Assembly: GCA_049521495.1 (NCBI GenBank)
Contig: JBEKOT010000007.1
Location: forward strand, 1-62,227
Direction of reading: 5' to 3'
Length of the DNA: 62,227 bases
Source of the DNA: Syntrophorhabdales bacterium
GTDB taxonomy: Bacteria > Desulfobacterota > Syntrophorhabdia > Syntrophorhabdales > WCHB1-27
Below, in pieces: positions 40,494-62,227 of this stretch. Position numbers and translations under genes: made by a program. The notes beneath the pieces were generated by a model. It searched no databases, was not told the origin of the DNA, and worked only from the letters and a program-made list of their open reading frames with translations. Within the stretch, counting starts at the first letter, position 1. Each line of letters begins with the position of its first letter.

Positions 40494-42134
40494 GTGAATC
40501 CGAGGATCGCCGGTCTCTCGGTTTTCTTCGTCGCCCTTATCCTGGCTTCGCCTGTTGGCCCTGGTGCGACGCAGGGTCATGAGCGCCGCGGGGCCGAGCG
40601 GCTCATTGTGAAAAACATAGGGCCGGGACAGGATATCACCAGCCACGAGTGGGGAATGGTGAGGCTCGAAGTCGGCATCGAAAAGAAAGGGGCCCCTGAG
40701 AGCGGCAAGAAGATGAAGCTCCGGCGGAGCCCTCTAAGAGTCAAAGTGGACAACAGGGAAGTGAGCTGTTACGTCGTCGGTTTCTCCACCGGGTACGAAG
40801 GTAAGAAGACATATGCTTACAGAACCGTTGCTATTCGGCTCGGCCCAAAACCGGGGCCGAGGGTCATTACGGTCCTTTACGACGGCCTCGTAAAGAACGT
40901 TCCTGTCAATTACAGCCCATCGGGGCAGCTCGATTTCACCGACCTTTACGAACATCAGGCAATTTTAGGCAAGAAGTCCGTGACGATACATTGGTTCGGC
41001 TGTTACCTCCTGAAAGAAAGCGTCAAGGTTAGCCTTAACGGTGAGACAATAGCGACGGACATGGAAGTGCCTGCCGACGCGCCCGACCTGCTGGGAGGGC
41101 GCATATCGCCCGGAGATCGGCTGGCGCCCGGCGAAAACAGGGTGAGGATAGAGGCGGTGGATACGAATGGCTCGAAAAGGCAAAAGGAATTGGTTTTTCA
41201 CTACTATCCCGACAGCAGGATCCCTCTGGGTGATGAATTCGTGCTCAACCTTGGCCTGGAAGAGACCGAAAACGGGCCTTTTTTGGATGCGGTCGTTGAA
41301 GGCGGAAGCGTCCTGAAGACGGGTGAGTTCGGTCAGCGGCCGGGGCCGGAGAGGATGGGGGGACAGACGATCATCCCGGCCGGACAGACGATCCTTGCCT
41401 CGTTCAGGGCAGTAGGTACGGGAGAGAGCACCATTGCCACAATTTTGAAACAGTACGCCATGGACGAGCCGACAGAGGTGGAGAAGGCACGAGTCGCCGT
41501 CTATGCCTTTCCCACCGCTGCCGGGAGGCATGAGGCGACAAAAGTTACCGGCCTTGAGAACTACATGGCGCAAGACCTCTTCACGTGCGCCATCCCGGGG
41601 GCATGGCTAAAGATTGAAAACCCGGAAGGAGACAAAGGGGTCTACGGCGTCGCCGCCTATCGGACCTCGCCGCAGGACGCGTCTGCGGCAAGCGTGTCGG
41701 TAGAGTTTTACGGACCGGAATCGAGCACCGGGGCGCTCGGCGCTGCCTGGTATATCGAGAGCCTCCTGATAGGGGAGCAGCAAAAGAAAAGCCCCTCACT
41801 GGCAGCCTGGGCCGTCAAAGCCTATGAAGACATGCAGAAAACGTTCAGGGGCGTCTTTCAGAAGGGGCGGGCCGAAAGGACTATCCCTCCCGCAGCCAGG
41901 CTCACGGAGACGACCGTGGCCGGAAGACGAGCCAAAATCGTGGAACGGGACGTCTCTCTCGTTCGGAGGCGGGCCCTCTTGTTCACGAGCAGAACTTCTT
42001 TTATGGAGAGATTCGTAGTTGTCCCGGCCGCGGCGGGCTTCTATGTCATAGGCTTCAGCACGCCTGCTTCGGAAGCCCAGAAGAACCAGGACCTCTTCGC
42101 AGCCATAACGAAGTCCTTTAAGCCCCTCAAGTGA
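40494..42134 (+). CDS. Secreted hypothetical protein, beta-rich N-region and PsbP/DcrB-like C-domain
   Basis: GTG start, signal peptide; C-terminus TTVAGRRA...FYVIGFSTP....KNQDLFAAITKSFK. Confidence 0.7.
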   Translation: MNPRIAGLSVFFVALILASPVGPGATQGHERRGAERLIVKNIGPGQDITSHEWGMVRLEVGIEKKGAPESGKKMKLRRSPLRVKVDNREVSCYVVGFSTGYEGKKTYAYRTVAIRLGPKPGPRVITVLYDGLVKNVPVNYSPSGQLDFTDLYEHQAILGKKSVTIHWFGCYLLKESVKVSLNGETIATDMEVPADAPDLLGGRISPGDRLAPGENRVRIEAVDTNGSKRQKELVFHYYPDSRIPLGDEFVLNLGLEETENGPFLDAVVEGGSVLKTGEFGQRPGPERMGGQTIIPAGQTILASFRAVGTGESTIATILKQYAMDEPTEVEKARVAVYAFPTAAGRHEATKVTGLENYMAQDLFTCAIPGAWLKIENPEGDKGVYGVAAYRTSPQDASAASVSVEFYGPESSTGALGAAWYIESLLIGEQQKKSPSLAAWAVKAYEDMQKTFRGVFQKGRAERTIPPAARLTETTVAGRRAKIVERDVSLVRRRALLFTSRTSFMERFVVVPAAAGFYVIGFSTPASEAQKNQDLFAAITKSFKPLK

Positions 42135-49655: not shown

Positions 49656-50651
49656 TCAGTTCCGGCCTGTCCCGGGCAGCCAGAGGTAATAAAAGCCCGG
49701 TTCGAGGGGGGAGAAGATATCAGGGAGATTGATGTCCACGAGGGGCAAAGGTGTGCCGCTTCCGGCGTCAACGGCGGAATTGTAAAGGTTGTCTTCCGGG
49801 TACTTCTCGTGCCTGTATACTACGACCCTCGCGCCCTCGGGGAGCGACGCAAGCCTCTTAGCCTCCCTGAGGCCGTCCTTCACGTAGCCGACGGAATCGA
49901 CGAGCCCCAACCGTAGCGCTTCATCGGCAAGGTATATCCGGGCGCTTGCGATCTTTCGCAGGTTCTCCGGCCCAACCTTGCGATGGCGCTCGACGAGATC
50001 GAGGAACCTTTTACCCATCTCATCCGTGAGACCCTGGAATATCCTCTGCTCTTCGGCAGTTGACGGGCGGAAGGGCGAGCCTATGTCCTTCTCGCTGCCC
50101 GATTTGCTTACCTCAACGGCAAGACCGAGCTTGTCCATTAGGCCCGATACCTTCGGTGTAACGAGGAGGACGCCGATGGAGCCGGTAACGGTAGTAGGAT
50201 GGGCTATGATCAGGTCCGCAGGGAGCGCCATGTAATAACCCCCCGATGCGGCGACGTCCATCAAAACAGCCACTATTTTGGCCCCGGTCTTTTCCTTGAA
50301 GTCGGAGATCTCGCGGTAGAGTATGTCGCTTGCGGTGATCGAGCCGCCGGGCGAGTTGATCTCGAAGAGGACCGCCTTCACCTCATTGTCCTTCTCCGCC
50401 CGCCGCAGCCTGGAGACAACCTCCTGGACCGCGCTCGCGCGGCTGCCCGAAAAAACCTTTCTCGGCTTATCCGACAGGAACCCGGACACAGGGATTACGA
50501 GCACCTTCCCCCTCTCCTTGCCCTCGATAGCGTATTCTTTAAGGGGTTCCCCGGAAGGGACGCCGAGCTGCACTTTCATCCTGAAACAGGAGACGCAAAG
50601 GACGGCAGCCGCCAACAGAACGAAGACAAAGGGCAGGGATCGCGCTCTCAC
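49656..50651 (-). CDS. sppA: Signal peptide peptidase SppA (peptidase S49, short form)
   Basis: INSPGG, VAASGGYY, TGSIGV, KSGSEKD, GLVD. Confidence 0.92.
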   Translation of the reverse strand: MRARSLPFVFVLLAAAVLCVSCFRMKVQLGVPSGEPLKEYAIEGKERGKVLVIPVSGFLSDKPRKVFSGSRASAVQEVVSRLRRAEKDNEVKAVLFEINSPGGSITASDILYREISDFKEKTGAKIVAVLMDVAASGGYYMALPADLIIAHPTTVTGSIGVLLVTPKVSGLMDKLGLAVEVSKSGSEKDIGSPFRPSTAEEQRIFQGLTDEMGKRFLDLVERHRKVGPENLRKIASARIYLADEALRLGLVDSVGYVKDGLREAKRLASLPEGARVVVYRHEKYPEDNLYNSAVDAGSGTPLPLVDINLPDIFSPLEPGFYYLWLPGTGRN

Positions 50652-50686
50652 GGGATTGCTCCTTTCCGGCCGGAAGGGCCTATCAA

Positions 50687-50715
50687 ATTCTCAACCCTTC
50701 CGGGCCTGCTGTCAA
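50687..50715 (-). promoter_or_regulatory. Putative sigma70 promoter of sppA
   Basis: TTGACA-17 nt-GAGAAT. Confidence 0.45.
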
Positions 50716-50858
50716 GGGAGTCTCTTTTTTTCAATTCGCAATCACGGCACAAGTTGCCGAAGAGGAGCAGGGGCATGTCCCTGAGCGCGGGCGGAGCTCG
50801 CGGCAACCGGTGCGGGGCGTAATCCCGAGCGTTCGCTGAAAGCGATGTGTAAACTTTG

Positions 50859-50883
50859 CTGCTGTAAAGAAATTTAACAGCAG
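50859..50883. promoter_or_regulatory. Candidate enhancer (UAS) for the sigma54 activator
   Basis: Imperfect palindrome CTGCTGTAAA-GAAA-TTTAACAGCAG about 200 bp upstream of the sigma54 promoter. Confidence 0.4.
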
Positions 50884-51045
50884 AAAGTGCCCGTTTACCA
50901 AGGGTTTTCCCTTTTCCGATAAGCGAGAAGAATGTTAACACCGGCAAAAGGGGCGTAAATGCCTGCTTTTTCATCAAAAGCGGCTGTTTTGTTATCGTTT
51001 TTGCCCTTGCTCTCCGAGGGGCTGGTGGCGCCTTAATGGCAGTAA

Positions 51046-51058
51046 TATCAATTATTTG
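51046..51058 (+). promoter_or_regulatory. IHF-binding site
   Basis: TATCAA-TTAT-TTG matches WATCAANNNNTTR exactly, just upstream of the -24 element. Confidence 0.65.
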
Positions 51059-51064
51059 TGCGAG

Positions 51065-51080
51065 TGGCATCTCTATTGCA
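51065..51080 (+). promoter_or_regulatory. Sigma54 (-24/-12) promoter
   Basis: TGGCAT-CTCTA-TTGCA, GG-N10-GC spacing. Confidence 0.8.
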
Positions 51081-51124
51081 AATGAGAGTTCATTGCATAC
51101 AAGACCTGAAAGGGAGGATAGACG

Positions 51125-52123
51125 ATGGAAAAGAAAGTGCTGCTGATAGATGACGAACCCTCCCTGAGAAGAAGCGTCTCAATGGGACTCATGCAGAAGG
51201 GTTATCAGACGGAGCCATGCGAGAGCGGAATGAAGGCGCTCCAGACCCTGGAAACCTACAAGAAGAAGCAGGTGTCCCTCGACTGCGCCATAGTAGACAT
51301 CAGGCTGCCGGACATTGACGGCCTGAAGCTCCTTAAGGTGATAAAGTTCAGCTACCCCCAACTCCCCGTGATTATCATCACCGGTTACGGAAGCGAGACA
51401 GTGGCCGAAGAGGCGAGGACGGCAGACGGCTATCTGGAGAAACCCTTTACCATGGAAGACCTGGCCAAGGTGCTGGAGGCGATCGAGGCGCCCGCGCCGG
51501 ATGCCGCCCCGCCGCCTCCGAAGGAGAAAACGGCGACGGCCCAATCGACAAGCGCCTACGCCCTCATTCGTCTAGGCAAAGAAGCAAATCTCCTGGATAT
51601 TTACCGCACCCTTTACTACCACGGTAACGTCCTTTATTGCGACGCCACGAGGGGCGACTGCGACATGGTGCTCCTCTTGCAGGCCCCAACGCTCGACGAC
51701 ATCAAAGAGGTGGCGGAAAAGGAGATCAAGGGAATGAAAGGCGTAGCCGAAGTCTCCCTGCTTCCCGTGGATGCGCCAATGCTTACAGACAACGTTGTCA
51801 GCATAATGGGCTCTGTGGACAGGGCGCTTGGCAGGGACAAGGGCGAGAACGTGGCCGCCTCCAACCAGGCAGCGAGAACAAGGGTTTCGTCCTACGTCAT
51901 GCTTGAAGTGGAAAAGGAAAAGATGGAAGGGATCTACCCGGCCCTTTACTTCAACGACCAGGTAGTCAACTGCGACTGCACGGACGGGAGATTCAACGTC
52001 GTCCTTCTCGTAAAAGGGACGAGCTTCAGCGAAATCGAGGCCGCCGTCCGGAACAAGTTCAAGGCCATAGACGGTGTGCTAAGGATCAAGGAATACCCGA
52101 TAATCACGCTCTTCGAAGCGTGA
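51125..52123 (+). CDS. Response regulator: REC plus two Lrp/AsnC ligand-binding-like domains, no DNA-binding domain
   Basis: IDDE, VDIRLP (phospho-Asp), ITGYG, EKPF; two repeats AY.LI...NVLYCD...GD.D.VLLL and SYV.L...VVNCD...GRFNVVLLV. Confidence 0.8.
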   Translation: MEKKVLLIDDEPSLRRSVSMGLMQKGYQTEPCESGMKALQTLETYKKKQVSLDCAIVDIRLPDIDGLKLLKVIKFSYPQLPVIIITGYGSETVAEEARTADGYLEKPFTMEDLAKVLEAIEAPAPDAAPPPPKEKTATAQSTSAYALIRLGKEANLLDIYRTLYYHGNVLYCDATRGDCDMVLLLQAPTLDDIKEVAEKEIKGMKGVAEVSLLPVDAPMLTDNVVSIMGSVDRALGRDKGENVAASNQAARTRVSSYVMLEVEKEKMEGIYPALYFNDQVVNCDCTDGRFNVVLLVKGTSFSEIEAAVRNKFKAIDGVLRIKEYPIITLFEA

Positions 52124-52145
52124 TCGGATTGGCAGGAGAAGAGCG

Positions 52146-52658
52146 ATGCTGCAAGCAGAATCGGGACAGGACAAATTGGAAAACGGGTTCTCGAGCTCCA
52201 AAGTGGCCTTCAAGGTCGAGCTCTGGAAATATCAGGGTGAGAATGGTGCGCTCATACCTTTGCTTCAGTCGGCCCAGGACGCCTACGGCTATATACCCCC
52301 GTCGGCCATCGACCACATCAGCCAGATCGTCGGCATACCGGATGCAGAGATATACGGCGTCATCACCTTCTACTCCCAGTTCCGCCTCAAGCCCATGGGG
52401 AGAAATATCATCAAGGTCTGCGACGGGACGGCGTGCCACGTGAACTCCTCGTCCGCCATCATAAAGACCATCGAGAGCGAGTTGGGTGTCGCCGGGGACG
52501 AAACGACCGACGACGGCATGTTCACCTTGCAGAAGGTGGCGTGCCTCGGCTGCTGCTCGCTGTCGCCCGTGGTCATGATAAACGATGAGACCTACGGGCG
52601 CCTTACAGCCAAGAAAATACAGCAGCTCCTCAAAGAATACAGGGAGCTAGAGCCCTGA
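52146..52658 (+). CDS. nuoE: NuoE/HydC-like [2Fe-2S] subunit (StnA-like)
   Basis: LIPLLQ.AQ..YGYI, TFYSQF, CDGTACH, CLGCC...PV. Confidence 0.9.
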   Translation: MLQAESGQDKLENGFSSSKVAFKVELWKYQGENGALIPLLQSAQDAYGYIPPSAIDHISQIVGIPDAEIYGVITFYSQFRLKPMGRNIIKVCDGTACHVNSSSAIIKTIESELGVAGDETTDDGMFTLQKVACLGCCSLSPVVMINDETYGRLTAKKIQQLLKEYRELEP

Positions 52659-52706
52659 AGGAGGGAGGAGACGCGAGACGGGCCCCGGCAACGGAATCGG
52701 CAATAA

Positions 52707-54488
52707 ATGGAGAGGGAGCAGATGAAGACTATAAGAATCGGACTTGGAACGTGCGGCGTCTCGGCCGGTGGCGAGAAGACCTTCGAAGCGGTCAAACATG
52801 AGATAGAGCAAAAGAACATTCAGGCCCTGGTCAAAGAGACGGGCTGCAACGGCATGTGCTACAGGGAGCCCCTGCTCGAGGTGATCGACGAGGCCCGTAA
52901 TTCCTATCTTTATGGCGAGGTGACGCCTGAGAAGGCCATCAGGATCCTCGACGAGCATGTGCAGAAGGGGACGCCCATCGAGGAATGGATCGTGCAGAGC
53001 GAAAGGCCTTCGGAAGACGACCTTTTCTTCAAGAAGCAGAGAAGGATCGTGCTACGGAACTGCGGGATCATAGACCCCAACTCGATAGACGAGTATATCG
53101 CAGCGGGCGGATATCAGGCCATCCAGAAAGTGTTGAACGGGTATTCGCCTGAAGAGGTTATAGAAATCATCACGGCCTCGGGCTTGCGGGGCAGAGGGGG
53201 CGGGGGCTTTCTTACCGGTGTGAAATGGCGTTTCTGCAGGCAGTCTCCCGGCCCGCTGAAATACATCATCTGCAATGCGGACGAGGGCGACCCTGGCGCC
53301 TTCATGGACCGGAGCACCCTGGAGGGGGACCCCCACTCCGTGCTGGAGGGGATGATGATCTGCGCCTACGCCATCGGTGCTCAGGAGGGTTACATTTACG
53401 TGCGCGCCGAGTACCCCAAGGCGGTCCAGAGGCTGAAGCACGCCATCCGGGAGCTTCTGGCAAGAGGCTTCCTCGGCGCCAACATCTTCGGGTCAGCCAT
53501 GAATTTCTATATAAAGATAAAGGAAGGGGCAGGGGCCTTCGTGTGCGGCGAGGAGACGGCCCTTATAGCCTCCATCGAGGGCAGACGGGGGATGCCCCGC
53601 TTCAGACCCCCCTTTCCCGCCCAGAGCGGCCTGTGGGGGAGGCCCACAAATATCAACAACGTGGAAACTTATGCAAACGTACCCTGGATCATCACGAACG
53701 GGGCGGAGTCGTTTGCGTCGATGGGCACGGAAGGGAGCAAAGGCTCCAAGGTTTTTGCCCTTGCGGGCAAAGTCCGAAGGGGCGGTCTGGCAGAAGTGCC
53801 CATGGGCATCACGATAAACGAGATAGTCTACGAGATCGGCGGCGGCATAAAGGGCGACAGGAAATTCAAGGCCGTGCAGATGGGCGGTCCCTCGGGTGGA
53901 TGCATCCCCGCGTCGATGGGCGACCTCCAGATAGACTATCAGCAGATCAATAAGACAGGCGCCATTATGGGCTCCGGCGGTCTGGTCGTGCTGGACGAGA
54001 CGACCTGCATGGTCGAGATGGCGAAGTTTTTTCTTCGGTTCACCCAGGACGAATCCTGCGGCAAATGCACGTTCTGCCGGGTGGGTACCAAAAGGATGCT
54101 TGAGATTCTCGAACGGATCACCGACGGCAACGGCAGGGAGGGCGATGTGGCTCTTCTTGAGCACCTGGCGAACCAGATCAGGAACAACACTATCTGCGGG
54201 CTGGGCCAGACGGCGCCCAACCCTGTTCTCACCACCCTCAAGTATTTCCGGGAAGAATACGATGCCCATATCCGCCTCAAGAAATGCCCCGCCCACAGTT
54301 GCCCGGCCCTTCTGACCTATACGATAAGGGAAGAGGCGTGCAAGGGCTGCATGGCCTGCGCCAAGGCCTGCCCTGTCGAGGCCATCAGCGGAGAAAAAAA
54401 GAAACCCCATGCCATCGATCCGTCTTCCTGCATAAAGTGCGGCAAGTGTTTCGAGACATGCAGGTTCGACGCAGTGCTCAAGGACTAA
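52707..54488 (+). CDS. nuoF: NuoF/HydB-like FMN/NAD-binding subunit with N-terminal thioredoxin-like Fe-S and C-terminal 2x[4Fe-4S] (StnB-like)
   Basis: GLRGRGGGGF, NADEGDPGAFMDR, CGEETAL, PPFPA, CGKC..CR, CGLGQTAPNP, H...KCPA..C, two CxxCxxCxxxC. Confidence 0.92.
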   Translation: MEREQMKTIRIGLGTCGVSAGGEKTFEAVKHEIEQKNIQALVKETGCNGMCYREPLLEVIDEARNSYLYGEVTPEKAIRILDEHVQKGTPIEEWIVQSERPSEDDLFFKKQRRIVLRNCGIIDPNSIDEYIAAGGYQAIQKVLNGYSPEEVIEIITASGLRGRGGGGFLTGVKWRFCRQSPGPLKYIICNADEGDPGAFMDRSTLEGDPHSVLEGMMICAYAIGAQEGYIYVRAEYPKAVQRLKHAIRELLARGFLGANIFGSAMNFYIKIKEGAGAFVCGEETALIASIEGRRGMPRFRPPFPAQSGLWGRPTNINNVETYANVPWIITNGAESFASMGTEGSKGSKVFALAGKVRRGGLAEVPMGITINEIVYEIGGGIKGDRKFKAVQMGGPSGGCIPASMGDLQIDYQQINKTGAIMGSGGLVVLDETTCMVEMAKFFLRFTQDESCGKCTFCRVGTKRMLEILERITDGNGREGDVALLEHLANQIRNNTICGLGQTAPNPVLTTLKYFREEYDAHIRLKKCPAHSCPALLTYTIREEACKGCMACAKACPVEAISGEKKKPHAIDPSSCIKCGKCFETCRFDAVLKD

Positions 54489-54501
54489 ATGGAGACGAGC
54501 C

Positions 54502-57500
54502 ATGACAGAACCAATCAAGATAAAGATCAACGACAGGGAATACGAGGCCAGTCCGGGCGAAACCATACTCGATGTCGTCCGGAGGTATGGAGTAGACACA
54601 ATACCGACACTCTGCCACGACCCGAAACTGCCGCCTTACGGTTCCTGCTACCTCTGCATAGTTGAGGTGGAAGGGACGGAAAAGCTCGTCCCTTCATGCT
54701 CGAGCCCGGTCGTGCCCGGCATGGCGGTGCATACGAATAACGAGAGGATCACCCAATCGAGGAAAGCGGCCCTGGAGCTGCTCCTCTCCAACCACTACGC
54801 CGACTGCCTGGGCCCGTGCACGCAAGCATGTCCGGCCGGCGTTGACGTGCAGGGCTATATAGCCCTCATGTCCATGGGCCGATACAGGGAAGCGGTAAAG
54901 CTCATCAAGGAGAAAAACCCCCTGCCGATAGTCTGCGGCCGCGTCTGCGTGCGCCCATGCGAGACAGCCTGCCGGCGGAATCTCGTCGACGATCGGGTGG
55001 GCATCGACTACCTGAAGCGCTACGCGTCGGACGTTGATATAGAAGACCCGTGGACCCCCGAGGTGCCTGCGAGGAACGGCAAGAGGGTGGCCGTCGTGGG
55101 CGGCGGGCCTGCCGGTCTCACATGCGCCTACTTCCTCACCCTCAACGGCTACGGAGCAACCATATTCGAAAGCGCCCCGAAGCTTGGGGGCATGCTGCGC
55201 TACGGCATCCCCGAGTACCGCCTTCCAAAGGCGCTCCTCGACAAGGAGATCAAGTGGATTACGGACCTGGGGATTGAAGTTCATACGGGGATGGAGCTGG
55301 GAAAGGATTTAACGCTGGAGCACTTCAAAGCAATGGGATTCGACGCGGTCTTTCTCGGCCTCGGAGCGCAGAAGGCAAAGGCTATGGGTATTGCCGGCGA
55401 AGAGACGACCGAAGGTATCATAGGCGGCGTCGATTTCCTGCGCCGGATGCAGACGGACGACCGGCCGGCCATATCGGGAACGGTCATCGTGGTGGGAGGC
55501 GGCAATACGGCCGTCGACGCAGCCCGGACTTCCTTGCGGATCGGCGCCGGCAAAGTTATCATCCTCTACCGGAGGACCGTGAGCGAGATGCCCGCCCACC
55601 CCATGGAGGTGGATGCGGCTGCAGAGGAAGGGGTCGAGATGATCTTCCTGTCGGCGCCCCTTTCCATAGTTGCTAATAATGGCCGGGTGGAAGCTCTCCG
55701 GTGCATCCGCATGGAGCTCGGCGAGACGGACGCCAGCGGCCGTCGCAGCCCCGTCCCGGTCGATGGCTCGGAGTACGACATCCCTTGCGATTTCGTGATT
55801 TCTGCGATCGGGCAGGATATCGACCTGGGAACGATCGACAAAGAGAGCGGCCTTAAAACAACCCGCCAGAAGGCCATAGTTGTCGATAACTCGACCTTCG
55901 CCACCTCGATCCCGGGCGTCTTCGCCGGCGGCGATGTCGCAACAGGGCCGGCGGTAGCGGTCGACGCGATTGCCCACGGCAGAGCCGCAGCTTTGGCTAT
56001 ACATCGGTATTTGCAGACCGGCAGCGCATATTACGGAGCAAAGCCGTTTCTGTCCCGAAAGGAAGCCTTCGGCGAGATGGCGCAAAGTGAATTCCTCCAG
56101 GTAAAGCGGGTCGAGAGGGAGCTGATGGCCGAGCTGCCCGTCGAGGAAAGGATCAAGAGCCAGGCGGAAGTGGAGCTGGGTTTCACGGAAGCACAGGTCG
56201 CAAATGAAACAGGCCGGTGCCTCGAGTGCGGCTGCACGGCCTATTTCGACTGCGACCTTCGTAAATACGCCACGGATTTTGGAGTCGATATCGCCAAATT
56301 CACCGGAGATACGAGAAGGTACAAGGTAGACGCAAGCCACCCCCTGATCTCACTCGACCCCAACAAGTGCATCAACTGCGGCCGCTGCGTCAGAACCTGT
56401 TCCGAGATAGTTCGGATATCGGCCCTCGGCTTCGTCAACAGGGGGTTCAAATCAGTGGTCAAGCCGTCCATGGAGAAGCCCCTCCTGGAGACTACCTGCA
56501 TCTCCTGCGGCAACTGCATAGATGCCTGCCCGACGGGTGCCATCACCGAGAAGCTGCCTTTCCGCAAGCCCGGCCCCTGGACGTTTGAGGAAAAGGAATC
56601 GGTTTGCAGCTTCTGCGGTGTCGGCTGCGTCCTGAACTACCGGGTCTTCCACGACGGCCTCTTCACGGTATCGAGCGTGAATGGGGGCTCTCACAACAAG
56701 GGTTACCTCTGCACCAGGGGACGCTTCGGCTACCGGTACATGATGGAGGAGGAGCGCCTCCATAATCCCTTGATCAGGAAGCGGGGCCGGTGGGGGGAGA
56801 CCACGTGGGAGGAAGCCATAAAGTACGCGGCGCAGGGGCTCAAGGCAGTAATAGCTAAGTCAGGCACGCGCTCGGTGGCAGCTTTTGGCTCGCCAAAAAT
56901 GACGAACGAAGAGCTCTACCTCCTGCAGAAGTTTGTCCGGCAAGGTTTGGGGACCAACAATATAGGGAGCTTCTCGAACATCGATGGCGGGGGTGAAAAG
57001 GACGCTCTCGACGCCATGTTCGGCCTCACTGTCTCGACTGCCACTATGGACGATCTGAAGGCGGCGGACGTAATACTGGTGATAAACACCGATCCGGGCC
57101 GGGACGCTTTAGTGGCGGAGATCAAGATAAAGGCCGAGCTTAAGAGGGGTGCGAAGGTCATAACCGTCGCCTCATCGGAAATCCCCCTCGTCAAATTCTC
57201 CCATCTTTGGATAGACTCGAAGCGGGGTACGAACACCGCCCTGGTATGCGGCATCTGCCGGTATATCCTCGAAAAGGGATGGGAAAGCGCCTCTTTCATA
57301 AAGAAGAGGACCGAGGGGTTCGAGGAGTTCAGGGAATCGACGGCCCGCTTCGACGCGGGGCTGGTAGCTGAAATAACCGGGGTCAGCAGGGAGAAGCTCC
57401 AGGTTCTGCTCGACCTCGTCGGAGACCCCAAAAATAACGTGGTGGTCGTCTACAACATCGACTCGTTGTGGGAAAAATCGAAGAACGACCTCCAGGCCCT

Positions 57501-58266
57501 CGGGAACCTAATGATGCTCTCGGGCAGGGTCGGAAAACGGGGGAACGGTATAATTCTTTTGCGGGACTTCGCCAATGCCCAGGGTCTTTTAGATATGGGC
57601 GTGGATACGGGATACCTGCCGGGGTATGTGAAGCGCGGCGACGGGCCGGGGATCTCGGCGCTCGAAAAGCTCTGGGGCGTTACGCTGCAGGACGTTTTTG
57701 AGCCGGTCCACCTAAGGGAGGCCATGGAGGCGGACCGTATCAAGGCCCTCATGATCTTCGGCGAGGACCCGCTTTTCGCGACCTCCAACTTGAGGCTGAC
57801 AAGCGGCGCGGAATTCATGGTTGTAGTTGACTCCTTCATGACGGCAACGGCAAGAGAAGCCGACGTAGTGCTGCCAGCTTCGCTGCCCATCGAGACGGAG
57901 GGTACCTTCACCGCCTGCGACAGGAGGCTTCAGAGAACGGCCAGGATACTGGCGCCGGCGGCAGGGATGGAGAACTGGCGCATACTGGATGCCCTGGCGA
58001 AAGCTATGGGCGTAAGCCTGGCCCCGAAAGGGCCGCGCGCCGTCGGGAACGAGATCAGAAAGGCCGTTCCCTTCTATAGAATGATCGCTGACGGCCCCTT
58101 CTGGGGCAAGGGTCTCTTCGAGAAAGCATTCATGACCCCCGACGGCAAGGGGCGATTCGCCCTCTTCGACCTGGACGTGACTACGTCTTCGAAGGAAAAG
58201 GTGCGGTGCCTCTTCGACGAGAACTACTTCGACCTGATGATAGGGAAGCAGATCGAAAAACGATAG
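54502..58266 (+). CDS. 1254-aa Fe-S flavoprotein: [2Fe-2S], GltD-like FAD/NADP module, ferredoxins and Mo-less FdhA-like scaffold (StnC-like)
   Basis: CHD...GSC..C...C; CPAGVD, CGRVC..PCE..C; GGGPAG; GGGNTA...YRR; CINCGRC..C; CISCGNC...CP; CSFCGVGC...LC; no Cys/Sec-His ligand at the NN.. position. Confidence 0.88.
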   Translation: MTEPIKIKINDREYEASPGETILDVVRRYGVDTIPTLCHDPKLPPYGSCYLCIVEVEGTEKLVPSCSSPVVPGMAVHTNNERITQSRKAALELLLSNHYADCLGPCTQACPAGVDVQGYIALMSMGRYREAVKLIKEKNPLPIVCGRVCVRPCETACRRNLVDDRVGIDYLKRYASDVDIEDPWTPEVPARNGKRVAVVGGGPAGLTCAYFLTLNGYGATIFESAPKLGGMLRYGIPEYRLPKALLDKEIKWITDLGIEVHTGMELGKDLTLEHFKAMGFDAVFLGLGAQKAKAMGIAGEETTEGIIGGVDFLRRMQTDDRPAISGTVIVVGGGNTAVDAARTSLRIGAGKVIILYRRTVSEMPAHPMEVDAAAEEGVEMIFLSAPLSIVANNGRVEALRCIRMELGETDASGRRSPVPVDGSEYDIPCDFVISAIGQDIDLGTIDKESGLKTTRQKAIVVDNSTFATSIPGVFAGGDVATGPAVAVDAIAHGRAAALAIHRYLQTGSAYYGAKPFLSRKEAFGEMAQSEFLQVKRVERELMAELPVEERIKSQAEVELGFTEAQVANETGRCLECGCTAYFDCDLRKYATDFGVDIAKFTGDTRRYKVDASHPLISLDPNKCINCGRCVRTCSEIVRISALGFVNRGFKSVVKPSMEKPLLETTCISCGNCIDACPTGAITEKLPFRKPGPWTFEEKESVCSFCGVGCVLNYRVFHDGLFTVSSVNGGSHNKGYLCTRGRFGYRYMMEEERLHNPLIRKRGRWGETTWEEAIKYAAQGLKAVIAKSGTRSVAAFGSPKMTNEELYLLQKFVRQGLGTNNIGSFSNIDGGGEKDALDAMFGLTVSTATMDDLKAADVILVINTDPGRDALVAEIKIKAELKRGAKVITVASSEIPLVKFSHLWIDSKRGTNTALVCGICRYILEKGWESASFIKKRTEGFEEFRESTARFDAGLVAEITGVSREKLQVLLDLVGDPKNNVVVVYNIDSLWEKSKNDLQALGNLMMLSGRVGKRGNGIILLRDFANAQGLLDMGVDTGYLPGYVKRGDGPGISALEKLWGVTLQDVFEPVHLREAMEADRIKALMIFGEDPLFATSNLRLTSGAEFMVVVDSFMTATAREADVVLPASLPIETEGTFTACDRRLQRTARILAPAAGMENWRILDALAKAMGVSLAPKGPRAVGNEIRKAVPFYRMIADGPFWGKGLFEKAFMTPDGKGRFALFDLDVTTSSKEKVRCLFDENYFDLMIGKQIEKR

Positions 58267-58314
58267 TGAGCGAATAATGATTGCCGGCCGCAAAGTGCCG
58301 CTGGGGAACTAATA

Positions 58315-58323
58315 TGTTATAGT
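58315..58323 (+). promoter_or_regulatory. Extended -10 promoter for the kinase-regulator pair
   Basis: TGtTATAGT; supports a kinase start at 58351 (GAGG SD). Confidence 0.5.
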
Positions 58324-58350
58324 ATGCAAACTGATCGAGAGGTAGGGCGC

Positions 58351-60018
58351 ATGGCACATCCGGACGGGGAAAGACTTGAAAAGGACTCAAAAGCAAAAGA
58401 AGGGCCGCAGGGCGGCAAAGGCGGGGCGACGTCGAGCGGACTCGAGCGAAGATACAGGGAACTCTTCGAGAAGGCGCCGACGCCTCTCCTCATTTCGCGG
58501 CTGAACGGAGACATCCTAGAGGCGAACCCCGCCTTCTATAAGCTACTCGACTATCCGGCCGACGGCTCGGCGAAGCTGAACTTCATGAGGGACAGACTTT
58601 ACCAGACGCCCGAAGTGAGGACCAAGGTCTGTCAGAGGCTCCTCGAAGACGGTATGCTCGAGGATATCGAATTGAACCTCCTCGACCGGTGCGGGAACCC
58701 CGTCCCGGTTCTGGTTTCGTACGCATTCATCGACCTGGCCGGGGAACGCTGCATCGAATCGGCCTATAAAAACATAAGCTTGCGCCACGAGCTGGAAAAA
58801 AAGCTGATCGAGCAAAACGAAAACCTTGAAAAAAGCGTCCTCGAGCGGACGGTCGACCTTGAGAACCAGAAAAACCTTCTCATGAAGAAGAACCAGGAAT
58901 TGAAAGCAATGACCGAAAAGCTGAAAGAGCACAAGACCAGGCTCCAGACGCTTTTCAAGGCCATCACGGACACCGTTACCGTGATCGATACGGACTTCAA
59001 CATCCTAATGTGCAATCAGAAGCACATCGGCAGGGGGAAGTGCTACAAGAAGGTCTTCTTACAGGAAGAGCGCTGCCAGGAATGCCTCGCGCAAAAGGTC
59101 TTCACCGAGAGGACCTCCGTCTCCATGGAAAAGGTTGTGGACGACGAATACTACCTGCTCCAGGCTTACCCGATCTTCGACGCGGAATGCCGGATCACGG
59201 GCATCCTGGAGATATCGAGACTCATCACCAAGGAAAAAAACATGGAGCGTCAGCTCCTTCAGGCGGATAAACTGGCCTCTCTCGGGCAGCTCGTCTCCGG
59301 TATCGGCCATGAGATCAACAACCCCAATACCTTTATCCGGGGCAACCTCTTCATCGTCCAGGAGGCGATGGGAGATATCTTCCCCATCCTTGACGAACAC
59401 TACGGGGCTCACTCGGACATGAAGATCGCGCGCCTTGATTACGATGTTTTCAGGAAGAACATCCCGGTCCTCATGCAGGATATGGCGGAAGGCGCGAACC
59501 GGATCAAGGGCATTGTCGACGGGCTCCGCAAATTCGGCAAGCGGGACGAGGGGTTCCTGAACGAAGCCGTCAACCTCAACCTGATCACGGAAAGCTGCCT
59601 CAGGCTGGTGGACAATCAGATCAGGCGCACTGCGGACGTCAGGGCCAGCCTCGAGGAGGAGCTGCCCGCCATCATGGGCAACTCACAGAAGCTGCAGCAG
59701 GTAATCCTGAATATCCTGATTAATGCCTCCCAAGCCATCGACAAGCCGAGAGGGACCATCAAGGTCTCCACAAAGTTCGACGGCAAAGAAGTGATCGTCA
59801 GGGTGAAGGACAACGGAAAGGGCATGGAGGAAAAGACCATAAGCCAGATTTTCGACCCCTTCTTTACGACGAAGAGGCACCAGGGCGGGACCGGCCTCGG
59901 CCTTTCCATCGCTTACGGCATCATCAAGGAACATAAGGGCAGGATAGAGGTGGTCAGCGAGGTTGGGGTGGGGACAACTTTCTGCACCTACCTTCCCGCT
60001 GCGCAGGCGGAGGCGTGA
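58351..60018 (+). CDS. Cytoplasmic PAS-PAS sensor histidine kinase
   Basis: No TM; PAS (ELFEKAP..ANPAF), coiled coil, Cys-containing PAS, GIGHEINNP, NILINA, DNGKG, PFFTTK, GTGLGL. Confidence 0.93.
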   Translation: MAHPDGERLEKDSKAKEGPQGGKGGATSSGLERRYRELFEKAPTPLLISRLNGDILEANPAFYKLLDYPADGSAKLNFMRDRLYQTPEVRTKVCQRLLEDGMLEDIELNLLDRCGNPVPVLVSYAFIDLAGERCIESAYKNISLRHELEKKLIEQNENLEKSVLERTVDLENQKNLLMKKNQELKAMTEKLKEHKTRLQTLFKAITDTVTVIDTDFNILMCNQKHIGRGKCYKKVFLQEERCQECLAQKVFTERTSVSMEKVVDDEYYLLQAYPIFDAECRITGILEISRLITKEKNMERQLLQADKLASLGQLVSGIGHEINNPNTFIRGNLFIVQEAMGDIFPILDEHYGAHSDMKIARLDYDVFRKNIPVLMQDMAEGANRIKGIVDGLRKFGKRDEGFLNEAVNLNLITESCLRLVDNQIRRTADVRASLEEELPAIMGNSQKLQQVILNILINASQAIDKPRGTIKVSTKFDGKEVIVRVKDNGKGMEEKTISQIFDPFFTTKRHQGGTGLGLSIAYGIIKEHKGRIEVVSEVGVGTTFCTYLPAAQAEA

Positions 60019-60022
60019 TGAA

Positions 60023-61387
60023 ATGAACCGGATATTGGTAATCGACGATGACCAGGCGGTACTCAATTATCTGAAAATTTTTCTGCTCCAGTCGGGCCAA
60101 TTCGACGTTACCACCTTCAGTAACAGCACGAAGGCAGTGGCCGAGATTTGGAAGAATTCCTATGACCTCCTCATTCTAGACATGGACATGCCCGATGTGA
60201 CCGGGCTCGACATACTGAAGAACATCCACGAGAACAATATCGACATCGAGACGATCGTCCTCACCGGTGTGGAGGACGTGGAGCTCGCAGTTTCGGCGGT
60301 GAAGCTGGGAGCTATGGAGTACCTGACAAAGCCCGTGGACAACGAGCGCCTTCTCAGGCTGATCAATACCGCCCTGGAGCACAGGAGGCACCAGAAGATT
60401 ATCGAGGAGGGGGAGTCCGTCTCCGCCGATGACCTGGAGTTCAAGGACGCCTTCAAGGATATTGTCACGGGCAATGAAAAGATGCACAAACTCTTTTCAA
60501 TGGTTGAGAAGATGGCCGTGACCGAGAACAGCATCCTCGTCTGGGGCGAGAGCGGAACCGGAAAGGAATTGATAGCCCGGGCCATCCATCGCATCAGCAA
60601 GAGAAGCAACCAGAGTTTTATCGCAGTCAACGCCGGGGCCTTCGCCAACGAGCTTTTCGCATCCGAGTTCTTCGGGCACAGCCAGGGCGCGTTCACGGGC
60701 GCAACCTCGCACAAAAGGGGCCTTGTGGAAGAGGCGGACAAGGGTACGCTCTTTCTGGACGAGATAGGCGAGTTGGCTCTACCTATACAGGTAAAGCTGC
60801 TCAGGGTGCTTCAGGAGGGCGAGTTCTTCCGCCTCGGCTCTACAAAGAACCAGAAGGTCGATGTGAGGATTATCGCCGCCACCAACAAGAACCTCCACGA
60901 AGAGATAAAGAAGGGCAATTTCAGGAAAGACCTTTTTTATCGACTCAATATGAATTCCGTCTACCTCCCGCCGCTGCGCGAGAGGAAGGGCGATGTCCCG
61001 CTTTTGGCCAACCACTTTCTGGCCGCATTCTGCAGGGGCAACGGCAAGAAGATCGAGAGGATATCGGAAGGAGCGATGAAGCTCCTAACTCATTACGACT
61101 ACCCCGGGAACGTGCGGGAGATGATGAACATCATAAACAGCGCTGTTATCATCGAATCGACCGGCGAACTGCGGAAGAAGTCTTTTCCCAATTATTTTCT
61201 GGAAAACACCGTAGTAGGCGACAACAACATAGGCGACATTTCGGTAAAAAGCCTGGAAGAAGTCGAGAATGACCACATCAGGAAGATCCTCGCCTATACG
61301 GGCGGCAACAGGACTAAGGCCTCCCAGATCCTTGGCATATCTCGAATAAGTCTGCTCGCGAAGATCAGGAAGTACAAACTGGAGTAA
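60023..61387 (+). CDS. Sigma54-dependent response regulator (NtrC family)
   Basis: REC, GESGTGKE, GAFTGA, LFLDEIGEL, YPGNVRE, Fis-type HTH. Confidence 0.96.
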   Translation: MNRILVIDDDQAVLNYLKIFLLQSGQFDVTTFSNSTKAVAEIWKNSYDLLILDMDMPDVTGLDILKNIHENNIDIETIVLTGVEDVELAVSAVKLGAMEYLTKPVDNERLLRLINTALEHRRHQKIIEEGESVSADDLEFKDAFKDIVTGNEKMHKLFSMVEKMAVTENSILVWGESGTGKELIARAIHRISKRSNQSFIAVNAGAFANELFASEFFGHSQGAFTGATSHKRGLVEEADKGTLFLDEIGELALPIQVKLLRVLQEGEFFRLGSTKNQKVDVRIIAATNKNLHEEIKKGNFRKDLFYRLNMNSVYLPPLRERKGDVPLLANHFLAAFCRGNGKKIERISEGAMKLLTHYDYPGNVREMMNIINSAVIIESTGELRKKSFPNYFLENTVVGDNNIGDISVKSLEEVENDHIRKILAYTGGNRTKASQILGISRISLLAKIRKYKLE

Positions 61388-61456
61388 TCCTAGGCGCCCA
61401 CGCCATGCGGTGATCCGTGACCAAGCCTTCGGTGCGGCTCCCGCCCGACCGGCAGT

Positions 61457-61972
61457 TTAGGAGCCGCAGCCCTCGCCGCACGTGCTGCCGCACGATGAGG
61501 CGCCGCAGCCGCAGGTCTCCTGATGGGCCTCCGCGAGCTCATCTGTAGTCGCGTCCCGCACGTCGAGGACCTCTACGTCGAAGCTTAGCGTCATGCCGGC
61601 AAGAGGATGGTTCCCGTCGAGGAGGACCTTATCCTCCTCGATCCTGGCTATGGTCGCCACCATTGCCCCATCGGGTGCGCGCACCCTGAGCGCCATGCCG
61701 ACCGAAATCTCGGGCAACTCCCTAAACTGCTCTTTCTTGACGAGGAAAAGGAGTTCAGGCCGGCGCTCCCCGTATGCTTCTTCGGGCTTCACGGTGAAGG
61801 AGAAGGCGTCCTTCGGCGATCTTCCCTCAAGGGCATTCTCGAAACCGCTTATCATCCCCGACCCCTGGATATACGTAAGGGGCGCCCGCTCCTTCGACGA
61901 TTCGAGGACTTCCCCTTCCTCGTTCGTAAGGGTATAATTGACTGTGACAGCTTTGTCTTTGGCTATTATCAT
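61457..61972 (-). CDS. slyD: FKBP-type peptidyl-prolyl isomerase SlyD
   Basis: V.YTL, GMISGFE.AL, PEEAYGER, DGNHPLAG..L.F, Cys-rich tail. Confidence 0.93.
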   Translation of the reverse strand: MIIAKDKAVTVNYTLTNEEGEVLESSKERAPLTYIQGSGMISGFENALEGRSPKDAFSFTVKPEEAYGERRPELLFLVKKEQFRELPEISVGMALRVRAPDGAMVATIARIEEDKVLLDGNHPLAGMTLSFDVEVLDVRDATTDELAEAHQETCGCGASSCGSTCGEGCGS

Positions 61973-62100
61973 GATGCTCCTCTCTTGCACCGCCTTCGCT
62001 AAGGGCGGCGTGATCTGTCTGTTGAAATAGTTTAAACGTGTTTAGGCCCCAATATCCAGTGGGGGTATTATGCGCGGCCGGGTTGATTTCGCGCTGTCTC

Positions 62101-62227
62101 TCAGGCGGCCTCACCTAAAAGCCGGAGCATCCCGTCGGCGCTCGATGTCGGCAAAGCGCAGGCGTTATTGGAGCAGACGTACGCAAGGGCTGCTCCACGG
62201 TCCGAGCGGTACGGCTGCACAAAAGGA
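62101..62227 (-). CDS. 3' end of a YyaL/SPATA20-like thioredoxin domain-containing protein (partial)
   Basis: ...GAALAYVCSNNACALPTSSADGMLRLLGEAA*, the AYVC.N..C.LP C-terminal motif. Confidence 0.7.
   Translation of the reverse strand, partial: PFVQPYRSDRGAALAYVCSNNACALPTSSADGMLRLLGEAA

What the first reader, a model, noticed from the sequence alone, without database searches (positions are those of the whole stretch)
52146..58266. Stn-type electron-bifurcating transhydrogenase-like complex, not complex I or formate dehydrogenase
The HydC-like and HydB-like subunits keep features of bifurcating enzymes (GAFM, PPFPA, Cys/His site, terminal 2x[4Fe-4S]). The large subunit joins a GltD-like module with an NADP-type GGGNTA...YRR site to an FdhA-like scaffold lacking the Mo ligand, the catalytic His and the C-terminal pterin-binding domain. 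No membrane subunits or hydrogenase H-cluster are present. This matches the StnABC architecture from Sporomusa (NADH + reduced ferredoxin + 2 NADP+ to 2 NADPH), here in a probable syntroph.
Basis: partly seen in the sequence, partly recalled or inferred. Interest (0 to 1): 0.65.

Follow-up and report, generated by a model that had tools for sequence, protein, structure and literature searches.

The report
Stn/NfnABC-type bifurcating transhydrogenase operon
These three genes encode a soluble iron-sulfur flavoenzyme of a known family that balances the NADH, NADPH and ferredoxin pools in anaerobes by electron bifurcation. It is an ordinary member of that family that gene-naming pipelines label as formate dehydrogenase or complex I subunits.

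Summary
Window 52146-58266 holds three co-directional genes. They encode a HydC/NuoE-like protein (170 aa), a HydB/NuoF-like protein (593 aa) and a 1254-aa fusion of [2Fe-2S], a GltD-type FAD/NADPH module, NuoG-type clusters and an FdhF-like scaffold.

All three match, end to end, the solved and assayed transhydrogenases: Caldicellulosiruptor NfnABC (9BOV), Sporomusa StnABC (8OH5) and the archaeal Nfn-Bfu (9N5U). Every cluster ligand is present, as are the bifurcation-linked residues (GAFM, the His/Cys B2 site, the terminal two [4Fe-4S] clusters), the family-invariant Lys (K172) and the NADPH motif (GGGNTA...YRR). The FDH-like part has no Cys/Sec-His pair and only a stub of domain IV.

The B subunit forms a clade with the three characterised Nfn-type B subunits, apart from four paralogs in the same genome.

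Local differences are modest. The FDH scaffold is better preserved. The ligand pattern at the FAD-proximal cluster is Val116/Cys145. A conserved sigma-54 promoter and flanking regulators are present. NfnSL-type enzymes occur in the same genome.

Verdict: new member of a known kind, of low to moderate interest.

The parts
51065..51080 (+). Sigma-54 -24/-12 promoter-like element, TGGCATCTCTATTGCA, ending 45 nt upstream of the first gene of the operon
   Evidence: It has one mismatch to TGGCAC-N5-TTGCW. The window-wide count of such matches is not above chance. However, the same element sits 42-62 nt upstream of the orthologous first gene in four related loci, L010-L013.
51125..52123 (+). Receiver (REC) protein with two AsnC/RAM-type ligand-binding domains and no DNA-binding domain. 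It is the first gene of the unit and ends 22 nt before the next gene.
   Evidence: Pfam Response_reg and AsnC_trans_reg x2. It is syntenic in L010-L013 at 74-84% identity. Its role was not tested.
52146..52658 (+). StnA / NfnC (BfuC): thioredoxin-like [2Fe-2S] subunit with ligands C92, C97, C133 and C137
   Evidence: PF01257, 181 bits. Best PDB matches are 9bov_C, 9n5u_C and 8oh5_A. Cys spacing.
52707..54488 (+). StnB / NfnB (BfuB): the FMN- and NAD(H)-binding bifurcating core. It has an N-terminal B5 domain, the B1 [4Fe-4S] cluster (C451/454/457/497), the His/Cys B2 (Zn) site and a C-terminal pair of [4Fe-4S] clusters for ferredoxin.
   Evidence: It is 64, 62 and 61% identical to Csac NfnB, Sov StnB and archaeal NfnB over its whole length. 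It forms a clade with them. A198/M200 and the B2 ligands are conserved.
54502..58266 (+). StnC / NfnA (BfuA). Residues 1-95 carry a [2Fe-2S] cluster. Residues 96-510 are the GltD-type module with two [4Fe-4S] clusters, FAD and NADPH. Residues 566-696 carry a CxxCxCx5C cluster and two ferredoxin-type [4Fe-4S] clusters. Residues 697-1254 are an inactive FdhF-like scaffold with one [4Fe-4S] cluster.
   Evidence: An AF2 model of residues 690-1254 has pLDDT 90.5. Its TM-score is 0.86-0.88 to cytoplasmic FDHs and 0.79-0.81 to StnC and Csac NfnA.
58324..60018 (+). PAS-domain histidine kinase
   Evidence: Pfam PAS, HisKA and HATPase_c. Syntenic in L009-L013.
59963..61387 (+). NtrC-type sigma-54 activator (REC, AAA+ and Fis HTH domains). 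The true start is probably the ATG at 60023 (MNRILVIDD).
   Evidence: Pfam Sigma54_activat at 227 bits, plus Response_reg and HTH_8. Syntenic in L009-L013 at 75-86% identity.

Best explanation
The operon encodes a soluble heterotrimer of the Stn/NfnABC type, a Type 1 'Nfn-Bfu' member of the BfuABC family. [quoted passage not shown] The reaction is 2 NADPH + NAD+ + Fd(ox) <-> 2 NADP+ + NADH + Fd(red), and it is reversible.

The mechanism is inferred by homology to the solved enzymes. NADPH reduces the FAD of the GltD-type module in the large subunit. Single electrons then pass along the Lys-ligated [4Fe-4S] cluster (K172), a second [4Fe-4S], the CxxCxCx5C cluster, the N-terminal [2Fe-2S] and a ferredoxin-type [4Fe-4S], reaching cluster B1 and the FMN of the middle subunit. 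The FMN, together with B1 and the [2Fe-2S] of the small subunit, splits the electrons. One pair reduces NAD+ at the FMN. The low-potential electrons leave through the mobile small-subunit cluster and the terminal two [4Fe-4S] clusters to ferredoxin.

The FdhF-like C-terminal scaffold is catalytically dead. It most likely serves assembly and oligomerisation, as in StnC.

Expression is probably driven by a sigma-54 promoter upstream of the REC-RAM gene, under the control of the PAS kinase and NtrC-type activator encoded downstream.

Shown here: gene content, homology, conservation of ligands and motifs, phylogenetic placement and synteny. Inferred: the activity, the electron path, the direction in vivo and the regulation.
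For: All three subunits have full-length top hits to the three solved and assayed Nfn-Bfu/Stn enzymes.

Identity of the B subunit is 61-64%. Identity of the large subunit is 43-44% over about 800-890 aa.

The B-subunit tree places P0002 with Csac NfnB, Sov StnB and archaeal NfnB (support 96/98). It excludes NiFe/FeFe-type HydB and four paralogs from the same genome.

[quoted passage not shown] R240 equals StnC R239. GGGNTA, YRR and every cluster Cys are invariant in 117 homologs.

The features that Schut et al. 2022 (PMC9304861) list as Bfu-specific are present: the B2 His and Cys residues, A198/M200, and the B3/B4/B5 domains.

The operon and its neighbourhood hold no other catalytic subunit.

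The FDH active-site residues are missing and are not conserved. No PF01568 domain is found.

Orthologs occur in 20 of 22 genomes of the same family. The gene order RR-A-B-C-HK-EBP and the -24/-12 element are both conserved.
Against: No biochemistry exists for this protein or its roughly 1250-aa clade.

The FDH-like part is less decayed than in the characterised enzymes. It scores 241 bits to a genuine FdhF, against 138-157 bits to the same part of StnC and Csac NfnA. Its TM-score is 0.87 to FdhH against 0.79-0.81 to StnC and Csac NfnA. It retains R1021 and invariant residues in segments that in FDHs lie near the pterin (my own knowledge for that last point). A residual ligand-binding role therefore cannot be excluded.

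The FAD-proximal cluster region differs from StnC. V116 replaces StnC C114, and there is an extra C145, as in T. maritima NfnB.

The genome also encodes two NfnSL-type enzymes. In acetogens, Stn and Nfn were reported to be almost mutually exclusive (PMC7483475).

The GltD-module tree joins the clade to Stn/NfnA only with weak deep support (37/86).
Confidence: 0.86

Rival explanations
1. It is an NAD(P)+-linked, possibly bifurcating, formate dehydrogenase, as public pipelines name it ('formate dehydrogenase major subunit').
For: JGI and NCBI names for the homologs. The C-terminal 560 aa match true FDHs at 210-241 bits with TM-scores of 0.86-0.88. R1021, equivalent to FdhH R333, is conserved.
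Against: The Cys/Sec ligand position is Asp here and L/I/V/F in homologs. The catalytic His is Gly here and Asn in homologs. The domain IV cap is reduced to a stub of about 45 aa and no PF01568 domain is found. The solved relatives StnC and Csac NfnA carry no pterin; Fe and Zn were the only significant metals (PMC11829005), and the domain is described as catalytically inactive (PMC10482914). The genome has genuine FDHs elsewhere, on C19 with PF01568 and on C99 with an in-frame TGA.
Confidence: 0.03
2. It has the same architecture but does not bifurcate. It would be a plain NADPH:NAD+ or NAD(P)H:ferredoxin/acceptor oxidoreductase, for example the sulfur/oxygen reductase activity first reported for T. 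litoralis NsoABC, or an SfrAB-like NADPH:Fe(III) reductase.
For: Nso and SfrAB share the GltD and NuoG/Fdh-like modules (PMC7483475). The ligand pattern at the FAD-proximal cluster differs from StnC. NfnSL enzymes already present in the genome could cover the transhydrogenase role.
Against: Non-bifurcating NuoF/HydB homologs lack the B2-B5 sites (PMC9304861), and all of these sites are present here. The T. sibiricus enzyme, which also has Val at the C114 position, bifurcates (PMC9304861, PMC12018979). SfrAB has no BfuBC partners.
Confidence: 0.07
3. It is the soluble NADH-input module of a respiratory complex I, or part of a HydABC hydrogenase.
For: NCBIfam names the small subunit NuoE above its cut-off. 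The middle subunit approaches the nuoF_fam model, at 495 bits against a cut-off of 559.
Against: No nuoA-N membrane genes and no H-cluster domain lie in or near the operon. The genome's nuo operon is elsewhere, on C10. The large subunit carries a GltD NADPH module that NuoG and HydA lack.
Confidence: 0.02

Closest known systems
Caldicellulosiruptor saccharolyticus NfnABC (PDB 9BOV/9BP5; PMC11829005)
   Same: Same three-subunit architecture, and the best-scoring solved relative of all three proteins (882, 870 and 165 bits). It shares the same clusters, the FAD/NADPH module, the His/Cys B2 site, the terminal ferredoxin-like domain, and a truncated, cofactor-less FDH-like tail.
   Different: Its large subunit is 1178 aa against 1254 aa here. 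The roughly 76-aa difference is spread over indels in the FDH-like part. It has Cys at the StnC-C114 position and no Cys at the position of C145. It comes from Firmicutes. Large-subunit identity is only about 44%.
Sporomusa ovata StnABC (PDB 8OH5/8OH9; PMC7483475, PMC10482914)
   Same: It has the same domain order. K170, R239, the NADPH motif and all cluster motifs are conserved. The B subunit is 62% identical.
   Different: C114 is Val here. An extra Cys145 is present here. The FDH-like part is longer here and closer to true FDHs. The regulation and host lineage differ. The S. ovata genome lacks NfnSL, whereas this genome has it.
Thermococcus sibiricus Nfn-Bfu (PDB 9N5U; PMC9304861, PMC12018979) and T. 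litoralis NsoABC
   Same: It is the best match for the GltD module (293 bits). It shares Val at the C114 position and the Lys ligand. The B subunit is 61% identical and falls in the same clade.
   Different: The archaeal large subunit is about 960 aa, with a shorter FDH-like tail and one fewer cluster (PMC9304861, PMC10482914).
NfnSL / NfnAB (T. maritima 4YLF, P. furiosus 5JCA)
   Same: It catalyses the same overall reaction. Its NfnB/L subunit is homologous to the GltD module here (150 bits).
   Different: It is an unrelated bifurcation device: FAD in NfnB, a Glu-ligated cluster, an NfnA/S partner and no NuoE/F-type core. This genome carries two such enzymes separately on contig C4.
Cytoplasmic Mo/W formate dehydrogenases (E. 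coli FdhH 1AA6, T. kivui HDCR FdhF 7QV7, R. capsulatus FdsA 6TG9)
   Same: The fold of residues 697-1195 corresponds to domains I-III (TM 0.86-0.88; 26-29% identity). The first [4Fe-4S] cluster and the Arg are retained.
   Different: There is no Cys/Sec-His pair, and domain IV is truncated to a stub.

Membership tests
Stn / NfnABC (Type 1 Nfn-Bfu of the BfuABC family) | Operon of three subunits: a HydC/NuoE-like, a HydB/NuoF-like and a GltD-in-NuoG fusion protein, with no other catalytic subunit | tested here: met
   Best PDB hits for all three are the Nfn-Bfu/Stn chains.
Stn / NfnABC (Type 1 Nfn-Bfu of the BfuABC family) | Large subunit has an N-terminal [2Fe-2S], the HxxxCxxxCxxxCP and CxxCxCx5C motifs flanking the GltD insert, two ferredoxin-type [4Fe-4S] clusters and the Molybdop_Fe4S4 cluster (PMC7483475, PMC10482914) | tested here: met
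   C38/49/52/66; H98...C102-C106-C110-P111; C573/576/578/584; C623-633; C666-676; C702/705/709/737. These are conserved in 113-117 of 117 homologs.
Stn / NfnABC (Type 1 Nfn-Bfu of the BfuABC family) | Lys ligand of the FAD-proximal cluster (StnC K170, 'strictly conserved') and Arg near the FAD (StnC R239) | tested here: met
   K172 and R240 align with K170 and R239 and are invariant in 117 homologs. StnC C114 is Val here, as in the active T. sibiricus enzyme.
Stn / NfnABC (Type 1 Nfn-Bfu of the BfuABC family) | NADP(H)-type second nucleotide site in the GltD module (GxGxxA followed by Arg-Arg) | tested here: met
   GGGNTA at 332-337 and YRR at 356-358 are invariant and identical in StnC and Csac NfnA. 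The specificity itself was not assayed.
Stn / NfnABC (Type 1 Nfn-Bfu of the BfuABC family) | Bifurcating BfuBC core: FMN site with the Bfu-specific Ala and Met, B1 cluster, B2 His/Cys site, B3/B4 ferredoxin-like domain, N-terminal B5 domain, and the C1 [2Fe-2S] in the small subunit (PMC9304861) | tested here: met
   A198/M200; C451/454/457/497; C434/T472/H521/C527/C532; two CxxCxxCxxxC motifs; C16/C47/C51; C92/97/133/137 in the small subunit.
Stn / NfnABC (Type 1 Nfn-Bfu of the BfuABC family) | B subunit falls in the Nfn-type clade | tested here: met
   It forms a clade with Csac NfnB, Sov StnB and archaeal NfnB (support 96/98), apart from HydB types and four paralogs from the same genome. The tree is small (14 rows).
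Stn / NfnABC (Type 1 Nfn-Bfu of the BfuABC family) | Tightly coupled NAD+- and ferredoxin-dependent NADPH oxidation, and the reverse reaction | not testable with these tools
   Needs anaerobic purification and assay.
Mo/W-bisPGD formate dehydrogenase | Cys or Sec metal ligand followed by the catalytic His | tested here: not met
   D828-G829 here; L/I/V/F then N in homologs.
Mo/W-bisPGD formate dehydrogenase | C-terminal dinucleotide-binding domain IV (PF01568) | tested here: not met
   No PF01568 hit. Only a conserved stub of about 45 aa remains. The model covers about 70% of FdhH.
Respiratory complex I / HydABC hydrogenase | Adjacent membrane Nuo subunits, or an H-cluster domain in the large subunit | tested here: not met
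   The neighbours encode TPR, patatin, SppA and FKBP proteins and regulators.
NfnSL (NfnAB) | NfnA/S partner (FAD/NAD-binding, DHODB-type [2Fe-2S]) and a Glu-ligated cluster in NfnB/L | tested here: not met
   No such gene lies in the operon. Lys stands in place of Glu. True NfnSL genes lie on contig C4.

The most novel reading that the evidence does not exclude
The roughly 1250-aa clade to which this protein belongs (Syntrophorhabdales-like Desulfobacterota, Acidobacteriota, Aminicenantes and others) keeps an almost intact FDH fold. Residues in the former pterin region are invariant, and the cluster-ligand set is a hybrid of the NfnB and Stn patterns. The clade could be an evolutionary intermediate between NADPH-linked Fdh-Bfu enzymes and Stn. 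Its FDH-like module might still bind a nucleotide or pterin-like ligand, or provide a regulatory or fourth-substrate site, rather than being a mere scaffold.
Probability: 0.08. Interest if true: 0.5.

Novelty: new member of a known kind. Interest (0 to 1): 0.25.

Why it matters
It corrects a widespread misannotation. Homologs are labelled 'formate dehydrogenase major subunit', 'NuoE' or 'NuoF', and neither Pfam nor NCBIfam has a model for Stn/NfnABC.

It shows that the Bfu-type transhydrogenase, described so far mainly in Firmicutes and Thermococci, is a conserved and separately regulated feature of a Syntrophorhabdales-like lineage (20 of 22 genomes of the same family).

In this genome it sits beside NfnSL enzymes and at least four other Bfu-type cores. 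That matters for metabolic models of syntrophic and low-energy anaerobes, where the link between NADH, NADPH and ferredoxin sets the energy budget.

It does not reveal a new kind of enzyme.

Tried and rejected

The sigma-70 promoter and terminator scan of 50500-62227 was at chance level and uninformative.

The single genome-contig scan returned only 9 loci, none from Sporomusa or Caldicellulosiruptor. I therefore rebuilt anchor sequences from the PDB alignments. For the large subunits this covered only the first 864-877 residues.

I tried to name the organism by searching a 546-aa ORF that I guessed to be GroEL (40494-42134). It is an uncharacterised protein with no Pfam domain and no named relatives. 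The lineage assignment therefore rests only on the names of homologs of the large subunit.

I considered and rejected formate dehydrogenase, complex I, HydABC, NfnSL and SfrAB as identities (see the membership tests).

F182 of A. mobile, cited in PMC9304861, does not map in PDB numbering. The nearest conserved Phe is F180, which equals F176 here. I left this unresolved.

Full report
OBSERVATION. The stated coordinates match three co-directional ORFs on the + strand exactly. These are 52146-52658 (P0001, 170 aa), 52707-54488 (P0002, 593 aa) and 54502-58266 (P0003, 1254 aa), separated by 48 and 13 nt.

Pfam gives the following domains. P0001 is 2Fe-2S_thioredx. P0002 has Complex1_51K, NADH_4Fe-4S and a C-terminal pair of Fer4 motifs. 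P0003 has Fer2_4, Fer4_20, Pyr_redox_2, Fer4_Nqo3, Molybdop_Fe4S4 and Molybdopterin, but no Molydop_binding.

The neighbours within about 6 kb encode TPR, thymidylate-synthase-like, patatin, SppA and FKBP proteins and regulators. None is a membrane Nuo subunit or a hydrogenase.

IDENTITY. A sequence search of the PDB returns the same three entries as best hits for all three proteins, over their full lengths.
- 9BOV, Caldicellulosiruptor saccharolyticus NfnABC: 882, 870 and 165 bits for the large, middle and small subunits.
- 8OH5, Sporomusa ovata StnABC: 794, 853 and 156 bits.
- 9N5U, the archaeal Nfn-Bfu.

These are the assayed and solved members of one family, called Stn by Kremp/Kumar et al. 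(PMC7483475, PMC10482914) and NfnABC or Nfn-Bfu by Schut/Li et al. (PMC9304861, PMC11829005, PMC12018979).

P0002 is 64, 62 and 61% identical to the three Nfn-type B subunits. It is only 48-56% identical to the four other full-length HydB-like proteins of its own genome. In a maximum-likelihood tree it forms a clade with the three characterised B subunits (support 96/98), apart from NiFe- and FeFe-type HydB and the paralogs.

The large subunit is 43-44% identical to StnC and Csac NfnA over the roughly 800-890 residues I could recover. A tree of the GltD module places its clade with StnC, Csac NfnA and Tsib NfnA, though deep support is weak.

DEFINING RESIDUES. All cluster ligands expected from the structures are present, and they are conserved in 113-117 of 117 homologs. 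These are the N-terminal [2Fe-2S] (C38/49/52/66), the GltD clusters (C102/106/110 and C145/149/153/157), the CxxCxCx5C cluster (C573-584), two ferredoxin-type clusters and the Molybdop_Fe4S4 cluster.

K172 aligns with StnC K170, the unusual Lys ligand that PMC10482914 calls strictly conserved. R240 aligns with R239.

In the B subunit, the residues that Schut et al. report as specific to bifurcating enzymes are all kept. A198 and M200 equal A. mobile A202 and M204. The B2 site C434/T472/H521/C527/C532 equals A. mobile C438/C476/H525/C531/C536. The small subunit has the C-x4-C-x35-C-x3-C [2Fe-2S] pattern.

THE FDH-LIKE PART. Aligned to true FDHs, the Cys/Sec-His pair (for example ...ARLCHAP... 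in HDCR FdhF) corresponds to D828-G829 here. In 117 homologs the first position is mostly L/I/V/F and the second mostly N, so no ligand is conserved.

The Arg of the LRGQNNVQG motif is retained (R1021, in 106 of 117 homologs). Domain IV is cut down to a conserved stub of about 45 aa beginning 'F.T..GKG.F', and no PF01568 hit is found.

This part is less decayed than in the characterised enzymes. Taken alone, it scores 210-241 bits to real FDHs but only 157 and 138 bits to the same part of Csac NfnA and StnC. A confident AF2 model (pLDDT 90.5) superposes on FdhH, FdsA and MeFDH1 with TM 0.86-0.88. It superposes on Csac NfnA and StnC with TM 0.81 and 0.79.

The extra length of about 76 aa relative to StnC and Csac NfnA is spread over indels in this region. 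The architecture is therefore the same, including the truncated end.

OTHER LOCAL DIFFERENCES. StnC C114 is Val here, and V or I in all 117 homologs. The active T. sibiricus enzyme also has Val at this position. An additional invariant Cys145 is present, as in T. maritima NfnB.

CONTEXT AND REGULATION. The gene order is REC-RAM protein, A, B, C, PAS kinase, NtrC-type sigma-54 activator and then a divergent FKBP gene. This order is conserved in five related loci at 66-79% large-subunit identity.

A -24/-12 element, TGGCATCTCTATTGCA, lies at 51065-51080 and ends 45 nt upstream of the REC-RAM gene. The window-wide count of such matches is at chance level. However, the same element recurs 42-62 nt upstream of the orthologous first gene in four related loci. 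The REC-RAM gene ends 22 nt before P0001, so it is probably co-transcribed.

Orthologs of the large subunit occur in 20 of 22 genomes of the same family and in some genomes of sister families. The closest named homologs are from Syntrophorhabdales and Syntrophorhabdus MAGs. The record titles of the related loci say only 'uncultured delta proteobacterium'. The lineage, and 'probable syntroph', are therefore inferences.

REST OF THE GENOME. The assembly is 2.97 Mb in 269 contigs, 92% complete. It also encodes the following.
- A fused NfnA-NfnB and a separate NfnA+NfnB pair. Both GltD modules group with T. maritima and P. furiosus NfnSL at 100/100 support.
- A genuine Fdh-Bfu cluster on C19.
- A HydC gene, a HydB-GltD fusion and a Sec-type FdhA on C99.
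- A nuo operon in which a NuoF(C-terminal)-GltD fusion stands where NuoE/F are expected.

Stn-type and NfnSL-type enzymes therefore co-occur here. Kremp et al. found them almost mutually exclusive in acetogens (PMC7483475).

MECHANISM (inferred by homology). NADPH reduces the FAD of the GltD module. Electrons then pass through the K172-ligated cluster, the second GltD cluster, the CxxCxC cluster, the [2Fe-2S] and a [4Fe-4S] to B1 and the FMN. Bifurcation takes place at the FMN/B1/C1 'flavobicluster'. NAD+ is reduced at the FMN. Low-potential electrons leave through the mobile small-subunit cluster and B3/B4 to ferredoxin. The reaction is reversible: NADH + Fd(red) + 2 NADP+ -> 2 NADPH. The direction in vivo is not known.

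NOVELTY. The family has been known since 2020, has three solved structures, and is already reported as widespread, including in 'Proteobacteria' (PMC7483475, Table 1). This locus is a new member. Its variant features are the better-preserved FDH scaffold, the Val116/Cys145 pattern, the sigma-54 circuit and co-occurrence with NfnSL. They are modest.

I found no paper in the held library describing the enzyme in Syntrophorhabdus. Pipelines misname it, and no Pfam or NCBIfam model exists for the family.

LIMITS. There is no biochemistry. The large-subunit anchors were only partial.

Noticed in passing
genome contig C10:22024-28544 (locus L022): In the nuo operon, a 649-aa protein stands between nuoD and a NuoG-like gene (followed by nuoH), where NuoE/NuoF are expected. 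It joins the NuoF C-terminal [4Fe-4S] domain to a GltD-type Fer4_20 and FAD/NAD(P)H module. This may be a complex I with an NADPH-type input module.
   Followed up: partly
genome contig C99:3364-9224 (locus L021): A HydC-like gene is followed by a 1060-aa HydB-GltD fusion, and then by an FdhA with an in-frame TGA (probable selenocysteine) that runs off the contig end. This is another way of wiring a GltD NADPH module to a Bfu core, here with a genuine FDH.
   Followed up: partly
genome contig C4:38064-44991 (locus L019) and C4:26955-29234 (locus L018): One operon encodes a HydC-like, a HydB-like, a 790-aa NuoG-like protein (weak Molybdopterin match, no domain IV), an NfnA-like and an NfnB-like protein. 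Separately there is a 759-aa fused NfnA-NfnB. Both GltD modules group with characterised NfnSL at 100/100 support.
   Followed up: partly
window 51125-52123: The first gene of the operon is a receiver domain fused to two AsnC/RAM-type ligand-binding domains, with no DNA-binding domain. It is conserved with the operon in relatives, and its function is unknown.
   Followed up: partly
window 40494-42134: A 546-aa ORF has no Pfam domain. It has only 16 relatives at E<=1e-100, none with a functional name ('hypothetical protein' at most), all from metagenomes or MAGs.
   Followed up: partly
loci L010, L011, L013: The orthologous genes in several 'MFD' MAG records are split by frameshifts (overlapping tblastn pieces in different frames). 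These are probably assembly errors, not pseudogenes.
   Followed up: no
locus L014 (Planctomycetes bacterium UBA4800): A contig end carries a large-subunit N-terminus 76% identical to this one. The adjacent B and small subunits are only 56% and 36% identical. This may reflect a mis-binned or mosaic contig, or a recombinant operon.
   Followed up: no
window 59963-61387: The listed TTG start of the sigma-54 activator overlaps the kinase gene by 56 nt. The ATG at 60023 (MNRILVIDD), 5 nt after the kinase stop, is the more likely start.
   Followed up: no
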